This document shows, one piece after another, positions 30,000 to 31,971 of a stretch of DNA of 64,000 nucleotides. Source of the DNA: Candidatus Marinacidobacterales bacterium. GTDB taxonomy: Bacteria > Acidobacteriota > Vicinamibacteria > Marinacidobacterales > SMYC01. The stretch's first letter is position 1. Each line of letters starts with the position of its first letter. The notes beneath the pieces were generated by a model that saw only the letters and a program-made list of their open reading frames with translations, had not been told where the DNA came from and did no database searches. Where the stretch lies: positions 192,001 to 256,000 of the forward strand of contig CBDCYI010000004.1 in the NCBI GenBank assembly GCA_965224085.1. Reading direction: 5' to 3'. The position numbers were made by a program, and so were the translations under genes.

Positions 30000-30311
30000 T
30001 CCCCGAACGTTACCGCCGCCACGGTCCGGTCTCTTGGTTGAATCCCTCGCCGAGAAGGCAGAGGCGCCGGAACGGCATCGCCTCGCGTAAGCGCCTCGAG
30101 CGCGTCTTCGTGCCGGCCCGGGGCGACAGCACATACCCTCCGTAGAAGCTCTTCCGCGTCGGGCGTCACCTGTTGCGTGCTCCTAATCATCGAGATCTCA
30201 GAGGCCGTGCATTCCTCGCGTGGGACGCGGCACCAATCGCGACGTGATCCGAACGGCCAACGTCACTCCGGCGGCGCCGGCGTGCGTGCGCAACGTCAAC
30301 TAATAAGAAAC

Positions 30312-31550
30312 TCAGGGTGTAGCGTTGGCAAGAGGTGTGAGAGTGACGTCAAAACCGAGCTCCCTTAGGCGTCGTGTCATTCGTATTGTGAGCTGTTCCT
30401 TGTCGCGTTGATGGAAGTAATCGGCACCCAGTTCCCGGTATGGAATCTCATTGTGGAGCATGTAGTAGACGGCGGTGATGATGGAGGCGGCGACGGCGAC
30501 GACAGCTTTCTTGGGGCCCCGACGAGATTTGAGCCGGAAGAACTGGGCACGCAGATAGCTGTCGCGCTTGCGGCTTGCCGCCCAAGCGGCTTGGACAAGA
30601 GCGGTCTTGAGCCATGGAGCCCCTTTGCGGGTTTTCTGAGAAAAGCGTTTACCGGCACTCTCATGAAGCCGTGGGCATAGACCGGCCCAAGAGCGAAGGT
30701 GTCCGGCCGTTGGGAATGCCGAGACATCGGGTCCGATCTCGGCGACGAGAATGGCCGCCGTGGCTTCACTGATGCCCGGGATCGTCACCAGAAGCTCGAC
30801 GGCCGATCGAAAAGGGCGCAGGCTCTCTGTGATACGGGATTCGAGCGCGCTCACTGAGGCTTCAAGCTGCTCGATATGATTGAGATGAAAACCCAACAGG
30901 AAACGATGATGGTCGGTAACGTAGCCCTCGAGCGCTGCGCTCAATTCCTGTTCAGTGGCTTTGAGTCGGCTTGAGCCCAGCTCACTCAGCTTGTGAGGGT
31001 CGCTTTCTCCCGCAATGATCGCTCGGAGAATCGCCCGCCCGCTTACTCCCAAAATCGTGCTAATCACGCTCGTCAATTTGATGTTCGCGTCTTCCAACGT
31101 CTTTTGAATTCGCTGGGTCTCCCGAGCGATTTCTCGAACGAACTGCTTTCGCGTTCGGGTCAGCTCTCGCAGTTCCTGGATCGGCGTTGGCGGAACGAAG
31201 CTAGCTCGAATGAGACCATGGGCAAGCAAATCCGCTATCCACAAGGCATCACTGATATCGCTCTTACGACCCGGCATGTTCTTGACGTGGGCCGGTTGTG
31301 CCAACACCAACTCAAAATGACCTTCGAGCACATGCCACACCGGCTTCCAATACACTCCGGTCGCTTCCATCGCTACAATCGTGCAACCGCACTGCCCCAG
31401 CCAATCCAACATTTCCAGCAATTCGCTCGTGGCCGTGCCGAACACACGCGTCTCGCGCACCACCTTCCGCTTCGTCGCTACCCGCACGCAAGCCGTAATC
31501 GATTTCTGGTGGACGTCCAATCCGGCGCATCGCTTATGAACCACTCTCAT
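30312..31550 (-). CDS. IS110 DEDD recombinase/transposase
   Basis: GGAGG RBS; GLDVHQ, MEATGVYW and RKSDISDA form the DEDD set; TIPGI and WAGLCPRLHESAGK mark the Tnp domain with its serine. Confidence 0.95.
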   Translation of the reverse strand: MRVVHKRCAGLDVHQKSITACVRVATKRKVVRETRVFGTATSELLEMLDWLGQCGCTIVAMEATGVYWKPVWHVLEGHFELVLAQPAHVKNMPGRKSDISDALWIADLLAHGLIRASFVPPTPIQELRELTRTRKQFVREIARETQRIQKTLEDANIKLTSVISTILGVSGRAILRAIIAGESDPHKLSELGSSRLKATEQELSAALEGYVTDHHRFLLGFHLNHIEQLEASVSALESRITESLRPFRSAVELLVTIPGISEATAAILVAEIGPDVSAFPTAGHLRSWAGLCPRLHESAGKRFSQKTRKGAPWLKTALVQAAWAASRKRDSYLRAQFFRLKSRRGPKKAVVAVAASIITAVYYMLHNEIPYRELGADYFHQRDKEQLTIRMTRRLRELGFDVTLTPLANATP

Positions 31551-31565
31551 CGCAGCCTCCTTCAC

Positions 31566-31775
31566 GTCGCACCGGCGTGGAGCCCACGAACTTGTAATCT
31601 AATAGACGCGCTCAACTATCCCAGCTGGAATAGAAAACGCAATTTGGGGTACGCGCAGGACTCCCAGCCAAACTTGACAACGGGCTCAGTCGCACCAACG
31701 TTAAGCCGACCTCTGAGCCGGTGCCACCTTCACAGACTACCGCGTTTCATTCATTCGGGGTGGCCGTCAGGCCGT
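31566..31775 (-). ncRNA. Candidate bridge RNA in the IS110 left non-coding end
   Basis: Stems: GGCTCAG/CTGAGCC (31683-31719), CTATTCCA/TGGGATAG (31616-31633), GAGTCC/GGGCTC (31580-31663) enclosing a large internal loop. Short matches to both element junctions. Confidence 0.6.
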
Positions 31776-31971
31776 GGAAAACTTGACAATACGCCACGAC
31801 AACTTCTCGTCTCACAGCGCCGTATGGTAACCGGCGTCGCGGTCTGCGAGTTACAACAGATCCGCCGCCATACGGGATCGAGCGAGCCGTCGATTCATTC
31901 CGTTCCCGCACAGCTTCGCAAGGAATGGAATCTTCCGTTGAAGTGTGGGATGATCCTTTGCGTCCAACAAG

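What the first reader, a model, noticed from the sequence alone, without database searches (positions are those of the whole stretch)
30300..31783. Intact IS110 recombinase with a structured non-coding end matching its own junctions: candidate RNA-guided recombination system
Seen: a complete DEDD plus Ser recombinase, no TIRs, and a 5' non-coding region with two multi-stem hairpins and a large internal loop. On the coding strand the putative left junction reads TTGTCAAG|TTTT and the right TTCTTATTAG|TTGA, sharing AG(TT), which is CT on the other strand. The non-coding region contains TTGTCAAGTTT (31670-31680, an 11-nt match to 31779-31789), TATTAG (31599-31604, matching the right end at 30300-30305) and CAAGTT (31589-31594); the last two lie in the internal loop. 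Known: IS621-type IS110 elements express a bridge RNA whose loops pair with target and donor DNA around a 2-nt core. Inferred: this is a bridge RNA with a guide layout that may differ from IS621. The 6-nt matches could be chance, and exact boundaries are unproven.
Basis: partly seen in the sequence, partly recalled or inferred. Interest (0 to 1): 0.8.

Follow-up and report, generated by a model that had tools for sequence, protein, structure and literature searches.

The report
Bridge-RNA insertion sequence with mirrored guides
This is an intact, recently active IS110-family mobile element whose upstream non-coding RNA carries short guides matching its own insertion site and its own end; it is a fresh example of the known bridge-RNA system, with its guides arranged the opposite way round to the textbook case.

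Summary
The finding holds. Window 30300-31783 (minus strand) is one of 6 complete, near-identical copies of a 1482-bp IS110-family element with PF01548+PF02371 domains.

- **Structure.** Its 230-nt left end folds into a conserved RNA. One long-range stem encloses two internal-loop modules, and the stems covary across 51 relatives.
- **Target guide.** TTGTCAAGTT (31671-31680) equals left flank + AG + the first 2 nt of the element. The 5 variable bases match exactly in 54 of 67 loci.
- **Donor guide.** TATTAG (31599-31604) equals the right end. The 8-mer matches at 7-8 of 8 positions in 57 of 67 loci.
- **Core.** Multi-copy relatives show the crossover core is AG on the transposase strand.
- **Guide order.** Both strong guides sit on the 3' side of their loops, the reverse of IS621 and ISEc21. 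Read on the opposite (CT) strand, the geometry is IS621-like, including a 2-nt handshake.
- **Weak or missing parts.** The right-target guide is weak. No right-donor guide was found.
- **Genome context.** The element targets the terminal repeats of IS6-family elements and has about 15 miniature derivatives.

An AG core and a MITE-like partner are already published for ISPpu9. This is a new member of a known kind.

The parts
30300..31783 (-). Whole element with both copies of the AG core. The element proper is 30300-31781, 1482 bp.
   Evidence: 6 complete copies in the genome are 99.3-100% identical across this span, and the flanks differ.
31784..31788 (-). Left target (LT) TGTCA. It belongs to the target, not the element.
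   Evidence: TGTCAAGTTGA occurs 47 times in the genome (1.4 expected), mostly unoccupied in IS6-type terminal repeats. Tandem junctions read RE-AG-TTCC without TGTCA.
31782..31783 (-). Left copy of the AG core
   Evidence: Multi-copy relatives share only AG between left and right junctions.
30300..30301 (-). Right copy of the AG core. The right target TTGACG follows at 30299-30294.
30312..31550 (-). IS110-family DEDD/Ser recombinase gene, 412 aa from the ATG at 31550
   Evidence: Pfam, NCBIfam, alignment to IS621. The same open frame is intact at 7 places in the genome.
31762..31773 (-). Left-end palindrome GGCC-TGAC-GGCC
   Evidence: A palindrome of varying sequence sits at this position in relatives (alignment). 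It resembles the A-box repeat described for ISPpu9 (passages). Function is inferred.
31744..31748 (-). GAAAC, left half of a short subterminal inverted repeat
   Evidence: It pairs with GTTTC at the right end. Relatives with GAAGC have GCTTC.
30307..30311 (-). GTTTC, right half of the subterminal inverted repeat
   Evidence: GTTTC, GCTTC or TTTTC is found 6-10 nt from the core in 56 of 58 relatives.
31734..31739 (-). TAGTCT, a -10-like box upstream of the RNA
   Evidence: TAnnnT lies 3-10 nt before alignment column 123, the start of stem P1, in 44 of 51 relatives. The promoter role is inferred.
31717..31724 (-). Stem P1, 5' strand (GCACCGGC)
   Evidence: Long-range stem with 31569-31576. 9 pairs, up to 27 of 51 sequences changed on both sides.
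31708..31711 (-). Stem P2, 5' strand (GGUC), closing the target-binding module
   Evidence: Pairs with 31666-31669. One pair shows 4 double changes.
31698..31707 (-). 5' side of the target loop (GGCUUAACGU), the candidate right-target guide
   Evidence: Family-wide complementarity to AG+right flank is above permuted pairs (z 4.5-4.8, 0 of 2000 and 0 of 3000 permutations). In this copy only 4 of 7 pair in the standard register and 5 of 7 with a one-base shift.
31681..31697 (-). Stem-loop P3 (UGGUGC...GCCCG) inside the target module
   Evidence: The stem is nearly invariant, so there is little covariation.
31671..31680 (-). Left-target guide UUGUCA-AG plus UU handshake, on the 3' side of the loop
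   Evidence: Guide columns are 0.91-0.98 identical to LT -5..-1, MI 1.4-1.8 bits. The 5 variable bases are exact in 54 of 67 loci, and the last 2 nt equal the element's first 2 nt in 60 of 67.
31666..31669 (-). Stem P2, 3' strand (GGCU here, GACC in most relatives)
31658..31664 (-). Stem P4, 5' strand (GGAGUCC), closing the donor-binding module
   Evidence: Pairs with 31579-31585. 7 pairs with 2-20 double changes each.
31642..31657 (-). 5' side of the donor loop (UGCGCGUACCCCAAAU)
   Evidence: Only its last 3 nt fit AG+T of the donor. No covariation with the right donor was found.
31607..31641 (-). Inner stem-loop of the donor module
   Evidence: The homologous segment folds as a hairpin with 6 or more pairs in 50 of 51 relatives despite different sequences.
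31599..31606 (-). Left-donor guide UCUAUUAG, on the 3' side of the loop
   Evidence: Guide columns are 0.96-1.00 identical to the right end at -5..-2, MI 1.3-1.8 bits. The 8-mer matches at 7-8 of 8 positions in 57 of 67 loci. In this copy 6 of 8 match.
31589..31598 (-).
   Evidence: No family-wide relation to any flank or end.
31579..31585 (-). Stem P4, 3' strand (GGGCUCC)
31569..31576 (-). Stem P1, 3' strand (GCCGGUGC)
30146..30244 (.). Remnant of an IS6-family transposase gene beside the insertion. It marks the target as a decayed IS6-type end.
   Evidence: tblastn of an IS6-type ORF from L141 gives 59% identity over 32 aa, E 6e-9. DNA identity is 74% over 73 nt.

Best explanation
This is an autonomous IS110-family insertion sequence that moves by bridge-RNA-guided recombination.

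**The RNA.** The left end encodes an RNA of about 160 nt, roughly 31727-31569 on the minus strand. A long-range stem (P1) closes a junction that carries two modules.
- In the target module, the 3' side of the loop (UGUCA-AG) is identical to the coding-strand left flank plus the AG core, so it would pair with the opposite strand.
- Its next two bases (UU) match the first two bases of the element. This is a handshake that can only pair after strand exchange.
- In the donor module, the 3' side (UAUU-AG, with one mismatched base upstream) likewise matches the right end plus AG.
- The 5' side of the target loop gives weak recognition of the right flank.

**The reaction.** The recombinase would bring together the circular RE-AG-LE junction and a target reading TGTCA-AG-TTG, and exchange strands at AG. 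In this genome that target lies in the terminal repeat of IS6-family elements.

**Relation to IS621.** Read on the strand opposite the transposase gene, the core is CT and the RNA geometry equals that of IS621: the 5' guide ends in CU, and the 3' guide is 7 nt plus a 2-nt handshake. The system is therefore wired in mirror orientation relative to the gene.

**Shown here:** element ends, target, conserved structure, and guide-DNA covariation.

**Inferred:** transcription, RNA-protein binding, the circular intermediate, and the order of strand cleavage.
For: - **Protein.** The domains and catalytic residues fit.
- **Copies.** There are 6 complete and 4 incomplete copies, with complete copies 99.3-100% identical and flanks that differ.
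- **Target.** TGTCAAGTTGA occurs 47 times against 1.4 expected, mostly as empty sites.
- **Left-target guide.** Its 5 variable bases are exact in 54 of 67 loci, across 45 distinct flank 5-mers. In an alignment-only analysis of 54 sequences, identity is 0.91-0.98 and MI 1.4-1.8 bits.
- **Left-donor guide.** It matches at 7-8 of 8 positions in 57 of 67 loci.
- **Handshake.** The guide's last 2 nt equal the element's first 2 nt in 60 of 67 loci, including 8 of the 15 where these are not TT. They equal the right flank in only 2 of 57.
- **Core.** It is AG, from 7 groups of multi-copy relatives.
- **Stems.** P1, P2 and P4 show compensatory changes. The inner donor hairpin folds in 50 of 51 relatives.
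- **Right-target guide.** Complementarity exceeds that of permuted pairs (z 4.5-4.8).
- **Published layout.** Passages read give the IS621 and ISEc21 guide order. Passages report an AG crossover for ISPpu9.
Against: - No direct evidence of the RNA. Rfam gave nothing. The single-sequence fold is no better than shuffles (z -0.08).
- RNA-library contigs covering 31429-31689 come from one study, cannot show transcription, and may be DNA.
- No guide for the right donor was found.
- The right-target guide is weak. With wobble pairs allowed, only 14 of 51 loci pair at 4 or more of 5 positions. This copy pairs at 4 of 7.
- This copy's donor guide has a mismatch.
- The left-junction search required AG, so the count 'AG in 67 of 67' is by construction. 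The AG core rests alone.
- The relatives are kin, so permutation figures overstate independence.
Confidence: 0.88

Rival explanations
1. The upstream region is only a promoter and translational leader for the transposase. The recombinase reads the target by protein-DNA contacts, and the repeated words are leftovers of nested insertion or chance.
For: The single-sequence fold is not unusually stable. There is no Rfam match. ISPpu9's long 5' UTR is reported to control translation (passage).
Against: The internal words change together with the flank and the element end across 45 distinct targets and 29 distinct ends. A leader or a relic would not do this. The words also sit at fixed places in a covarying structure.
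Confidence: 0.03
2. TGTCAAGTT is the true left tip of the element, so the internal copy is merely a direct repeat within the element and the target is just the sequence to its right.
For: All 9 copies that retain a left end, and 13 of 15 miniature copies (one more reads CGTCAAGTT), carry TGTCAAGTT with variable sequence further left.
Against: - 47 sites with TGTCAAGTTGA exist, most without the element and inside IS6-type ends.
- Tandem junctions read right end-AG-TTCC, with no TGTCA.
- In relatives the corresponding 5 bases differ between copies only where the guide tolerates it, and they belong to unrelated flanks.
Confidence: 0.04
3. The RNA guides target choice only, like a short seekRNA. 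The element's own ends are recognised by the protein, perhaps through the GTTTC/GAAAC repeat.
For: No right-donor guide was found. A covarying subterminal repeat exists. Short seekRNAs holding only the target matches suffice for some elements (passages).
Against: The donor-matching 8-mer tracks the right end in 57 of 67 loci (MI 1.3-1.8 bits) and lies in a second loop built like the first.
Confidence: 0.05

Closest known systems
IS621 and its bridge RNA (E. coli; Durrant 2024, Hiraizumi 2024)
   Same: - DEDD plus Ser recombinase.
- The RNA is encoded upstream of the gene.
- There are two internal-loop modules, one for the target and one for the donor.
- A 2-nt core is included in the guides, and a 2-nt handshake follows the 3' guide.
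- On the CT strand the geometry matches: the 5' guide ends in CU, and the 3' guide is 7 nt plus 2.
   Different: - The protein is only distantly related (44 bits).
- The core reads AG, not CT, on the transposase strand.
- The guides that equal the coding-strand flank or end lie on the 3' side of the loops, not the 5' side.
- The two modules are closed by one long-range stem instead of standing in series.
- The 5' guides are weak or undetected.
ISPpu9 of Pseudomonas putida (NAR 2025, passages read)
   Same: - It belongs to the IS110 group, and recombination takes place at an AG dinucleotide at both ends.
- Its left-end box holds a short palindrome, and its right-end box is short.
- It has a MITE-like partner element and tandem arrangements.
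- It inserts into a repeated sequence.
   Different: - Its target is a REP sequence, not an IS end.
- Its partner carries a small-RNA gene.
- The passages I read do not describe its guide layout.
- I could not fetch its sequence, so kinship with this clade is untested.
IS1111-type elements with seekRNA (ISEc11, ISPa11, ISKpn4; Siddiquee 2024, passages read)
   Same: The guide order is the same: the segment complementary to the top strand comes first, and the segment complementary to the bottom strand comes second.
   Different: In those elements the RNA lies downstream of the transposase gene and the ends carry 7-17-bp subterminal repeats. Here the RNA is upstream, only 11 nt follow the stop codon, and the repeat is about 5 bp.
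IS4321 and IS5075 (Partridge and Hall 2003; seen only as a reference title)
   Same: An IS110-family element that inserts into the terminal inverted repeat of another transposon family.
   Different: Their targets are Tn21-family ends. Here the target is the end of IS6-family elements.

Membership tests
IS110-family recombinase | DEDD_Tnp_IS110 followed by the Transposase_20 domain | tested here: met
   PF01548 E 4e-28 and PF02371 E 2e-23. NF033542 scores 293 bits against a cut-off of 140.
IS110-family recombinase | Catalytic D, E, D, D and Ser | tested here: met
   E, D, D and Ser align with those of IS621. The first D is inferred from the LDVH motif in the sequence and was not aligned.
IS110-family element | No terminal inverted repeats, a 2-nt core at both junctions, and site-specific insertion | tested here: met
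Bridge RNA | Conserved structured RNA in the long non-coding end | tested here: met
   Stems P1, P2 and P4 carry compensatory changes in 51 sequences. The inner hairpin folds in 50 of 51.
Bridge RNA | Loop segment covaries with the left target | tested here: met
Bridge RNA | Loop segment covaries with the left donor (right end) | tested here: met
Bridge RNA | Loop segment pairs with the right target | tested here: inconclusive
   Above permuted pairs (z 4.5-4.8). Counting strict Watson-Crick pairs, only 6 of 51 loci pair at 4 or more of 5 positions.
Bridge RNA | Loop segment pairs with the right donor (left end) | tested here: inconclusive
   No signal. The left end is conserved, so covariation has little power.
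Bridge RNA | Handshake bases that match the non-cognate DNA | tested here: met
   Target loop: 60 of 67 loci match the donor and 2 of 57 match the target. The donor loop is unclear.
Bridge RNA | The RNA is made and binds the recombinase | not testable with these tools
   Only contigs from RNA libraries of one study cover 31429-31689.
IS621-type layout | [quoted passage not shown] | tested here: not met
   The core is AG. Both such guides lie 3' of the inner hairpins. The IS621 layout is taken from passages.
IS1111 group | Non-coding region downstream of the transposase gene | tested here: not met
   The stop codon is at 30312-30314 and the element ends at 30300.
IS1111 group | Subterminal inverted repeats of 7-17 bp | tested here: not met
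   The longest inverted match has a median near 6 nt against 5.7 in shuffles. Only a 5-bp GTTTC/GAAAC pair recurs.
Rfam families | A match to any curated RNA family | tested here: not met
   Nothing relevant at E up to 10 or in a second copy.

The most novel reading that the evidence does not exclude
A large, phylum-spanning clade of IS110-group elements, probably including ISPpu9, carries upstream bridge RNAs wired in mirror orientation to IS621. The main 7+2-nt guides sit on the 3' sides of both loops and read the strand opposite the transposase gene, with CT on that strand. If so, the recombination complex engages the element the other way round, and the first-cleaved strand would be the non-coding one. 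This combines the IS110-type RNA position with the IS1111-type guide order. None of the passages I could read states this combination.
Probability: 0.3. Interest if true: 0.6.

Novelty: new member of a known kind. Interest (0 to 1): 0.42.

Why it matters
**The case itself.** It is a clean natural example of bridge-RNA guidance in an uncharacterised lineage. The copies are identical, empty targets are abundant in the same genome, miniature derivatives would have to be served in trans, and the guide-DNA code can be read from 67 loci.

**If the mirrored wiring is undescribed.** It would show that the orientation of the RNA-DNA complex relative to the element is not fixed in the IS110 group. That bears on models of how the RNA moved between element ends, and on which strand is cut first.

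**Practical value.** The clade offers short, strongly covarying 7+2-nt guides and an AG (CT) core for anyone surveying bridge recombinases.

**Ecology.** One mobile element uses the ends of another family as landing pads, and at least one further IS110-type element abuts the same motif.

Tried and rejected
**Searches and tests that found nothing**
- Rfam search of the region and of a second copy gave nothing relevant.
- A single-sequence fold of the 240-nt leader gave z -0.08. It is uninformative, and its lowest-energy fold differs from the comparative structure.
- I searched for a right-donor guide on the 5' side of the donor loop and in the rest of its 3' side, by position-wise pairing, identity and mutual information. 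No clear diagonal appeared.
- I compared longest shared or complementary words between the donor loop's 3' remainder and each flank or end. All z values lay between -1.0 and 1.2.
- I looked for long subterminal inverted repeats and found none.

**Readings considered and dropped**
- TT as the core was rejected, because right junctions in multi-copy relatives lack TT.
- A 9-bp pairing of this copy's 5' loop side with right-flank positions +4 to +12 was considered. I dropped it as post hoc, because other insertion sites in the genome differ there.

**RNA evidence**
- Four metatranscriptome runs from one study, kept as contigs, cover 31429-31689 and, separately, miniature-element sequence. Contigs cannot show transcription, ends or strand, and DNA may be present in the libraries. 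I use this as no more than a hint. The parts without cover say nothing.

**What I could not do**
- Figures and supplementary files of the papers could not be seen. Durrant 2024 Fig. 6d, Extended Data Fig. 10c and the supplementary data, and Fig. S12 of the 2026 preprint with 86 covariance models, may already show this layout.
- I could not fetch ISPpu9, IS621 or any IS1111-type sequence by name, so no tree placing this clade was built.

**Literature searches behind the statement that the layout is not described in what I read:**

**What I saw of each paper**
- PMC11208160: passages.
- PMC11208158: passages.
- 10.64898/2026.10.21.760802: passages and the whole of section 2.4.
- PMC11187229: passages.
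- 10.64898/2026.08.14.744561: abstract, outline and passages.
- PMC12288879: passages.
- 10.64898/2026.03.19.712850: passages.
- All other papers: search listings only.
- The IS26 terminal-repeat resemblance and the IS621 guide letters that I used while thinking were recalled, and are not relied on.
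Full report
**What is there**

On the minus strand of the window, an ORF at 30312-31550 encodes a 412-aa protein. It carries PF01548 and PF02371 and scores 293 bits against NCBIfam NF033542, "IS110 family RNA-guided transposase". 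It is only distantly like IS621 (44 bits), but E, D, D and the catalytic Ser align.

Upstream lie about 230 non-coding nt. Downstream, 11 nt separate the stop codon from the element's end.

**Copies and ends**

- The window's genome (6.87 Mb, 12 contigs) holds 6 complete copies, 99.3-100% identical.
- Two more copies have an altered right tip, and two are truncated. The same 428-codon open frame is intact at 7 places.
- On the coding strand every left junction reads variable flank, then TGTCAAGTT, then TTCCACGG.... Every intact right junction reads ...GAGTTTCTTATTAGTT, then variable flank.
- About 15 miniature elements of roughly 150 bp join the first 66-75 nt of the left end to the last 72-80 nt of the right end. 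They lack the gene and both guide loops.
- Three tandem arrangements read right end-AG-TTCC..., without TGTCA. This places TGTCA outside the element.

**Target**

- TGTCAAGTT occurs 99 times in the genome (23 expected from composition). TGTCAAGTTGA occurs 47 times (1.4 expected).
- Most copies are unoccupied and sit in GGTATTGTCAAGTTGACG..., the tip of an abundant repeat with about 33 copies of one subfamily.
- A full copy of that repeat carries a DDE_Tnp_IS240 (IS6-family) gene, E 3e-33.
- The window copy itself sits beside a decayed IS6-type gene fragment at about 30146-30244.
- So the element lands in the terminal repeats of IS6-family elements, at TGTCA-AG-TTG.

**Relatives and guides**

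I fetched 80 loci with relatives at 53-65% protein identity from many phyla, and 29 more from the window's phylum. After dropping reversed, truncated and duplicate rows, 67 loci entered the junction tables and 51-54 entered the alignments. The leaders align well.

*Left-target guide.*
- The segment after the conserved GCCCGU is N5-AG-NN.
- Its five variable bases equal the five bases left of the junction in 54 of 67 loci, across 45 distinct 5-mers.
- In an analysis using alignment columns only, identity was 0.91-0.98 and mutual information 1.4-1.8 bits.

*Left-donor guide.*
- The segment after the conserved GAGCRCG is N5-AG.
- It matches the right end (GTTTC-N5-AG) at 7-8 of 8 positions in 57 of 67 loci, at 6 in 8 loci, and at 4-5 in 2 loci.
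- This copy matches at 6 of 8.

*Core.* In seven groups of multi-copy relatives the right junction is ...N5-AG followed at once by unrelated sequence. The only letters common to both junctions are therefore AG. The AGTT seen here arises because this target happens to continue with TT.

*Handshake.*
- The two bases after AG in the target guide equal the element's first two bases in 60 of 67 loci.
- That includes 8 of the 15 loci where these bases are not TT.
- They equal the right flank in only 2 of 57 loci.
- This is the behaviour described for handshake guides (passages).

**Structure**

RNAalifold on 51 sequences gave four helices:
- **P1**, a long-range stem of 9 pairs, with up to 27 sequences changed on both sides.
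- **P2**, GGUC/GACC, with 4 double changes in one pair.
- **P3**, an almost invariant hairpin inside P2.
- **P4**, 7 pairs with 2-20 double changes each.

Inside P4, the variable segment folds as a hairpin with 6 or more pairs in 50 of 51 sequences.

The resulting layout is:
- P2, 5' loop side (GG-N6-CU), P3, 3' loop side (U-N5-AG-NN), P2'.
- P4, 5' loop side, hairpin, 3' loop side (N5-AG plus about 10 nt), P4'.
- Both modules are enclosed by P1.

A TAnnnT box lies 3-10 nt before alignment column 123, the start of P1, in 44 of 51 sequences. This suggests the RNA starts near P1.

**Weak and missing parts**

- The 5' side of the target loop is complementary to AG plus the right flank more than in permuted pairs: 2.14 vs 1.53 of 6, z 4.5, 0 of 2000 permutations.
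- Taking the better of two registers gives 2.31 vs 1.77 of 5, z 4.8, 0 of 3000.
- Even so, only 6 of 51 loci pair at 4 or more of 5 positions by strict Watson-Crick pairs.
- This copy pairs at 4 of 7, or 5 of 7 with a one-base shift.
- No guide for the left end (right donor) was found.

**Comparison with the literature**

- ISEc21 has the same order. IS1111-type seekRNAs have the reverse order, but their RNA lies downstream of the gene (passages).
- ISPpu10 uses CT.
- ISPpu9 recombines at AG, has a palindrome in its left box, and has a registered MITE-like partner.

The element here has the RNA upstream, an AG core, and the IS1111-type order. Read on the opposite strand, the core is CT, the 5' guide ends in CU, and the 3' guide is 7 nt plus a 2-nt handshake. 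That is the IS621 geometry turned round relative to the gene.

A 2026 preprint reports 86 covariance models for 32,190 bridge RNAs, many of them unlike IS621. This clade has therefore very probably been surveyed already. I did not see its guide order stated in the text available to me, and figures and supplements were closed.

**Expression**

Contigs from four RNA libraries of one study cover 31429-31689 and, separately, miniature-element sequence. This is a hint only.

**Verdict**

The bridge-RNA reading is well supported by comparative evidence, though no experiment backs it. The layout differs from IS621 in orientation. The case is a new member of a known kind. The mirrored wiring, the IS6-end target and the miniature derivatives are the points worth a specialist's look.

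Noticed in passing
Outside the window: G000:C9:751918-752072, C4:496138-496382, C11:683576-683726 and about 12 more (loci L012, L017, L020, L022): About 15 miniature elements of roughly 150 bp are made of the left 66-75 nt and the right 72-80 nt of this element. They lack the gene and both guide loops. Some stand in tandem with each other or with a full copy.
   Followed up: partly
window 30146-30244 and 30283-30299; full copy at L141:133-960: IS6-family elements (DDE_Tnp_IS240) have tips reading GGTATTGTCAAGTTGA. One subfamily has about 33 copies, and several others share the tip. They are the landing sites of the IS110-type element.
   Followed up: partly
G000:C4:833140/833478-834656, C5:331257-332435/332773, C9:576971/577309-578487: A second IS110-family element, with an open frame of about 475 codons, lies a few hundred bases from TGTCAAGTT motifs preceded by a repeated sequence ending ...GCCATTGC. 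It may use the same IS6-type tip a few bases upstream.
   Followed up: no
Whole genome G000: 61 matches to the IS110 transposase model, 38 of them over the cut-off. They fall into at least five size and score classes, so the genome is unusually rich in this family.
   Followed up: no
window 31744-31748 and 30307-30311; relatives L104, L105, L113, L118, L134, L137: A 5-bp subterminal inverted repeat, GAAAC in the left end and GTTTC in the right end, changes on both sides to GAAGC/GCTTC in a subclade. Its placement is asymmetric: about 34 nt from the core on the left and 6 nt on the right.
   Followed up: partly
Left flanks of L032, L064, L084, L092, L111, L123, L131, L134, L139: In many relatives the left flank looks like the right end of an element of the same family (GTTTC-N5-AG). 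This suggests tandem copies or insertion beside a relative's end. The base at -6 is C in 59% of targets, against 98-100% of donors.
   Followed up: no
window 30357-30433 joined to 31518-31519: Contigs from two RNA libraries join the right-end region to the start of the gene on opposite strands. This may be another rearranged derivative in a related organism.
   Followed up: no
L133 (a Luteitalea MAG contig): A relative at 57% protein identity, from a MAG labelled with another phylum, carries the same target guide TTGTCAAGTT and sits at a TGTCA-AG flank.
   Followed up: no
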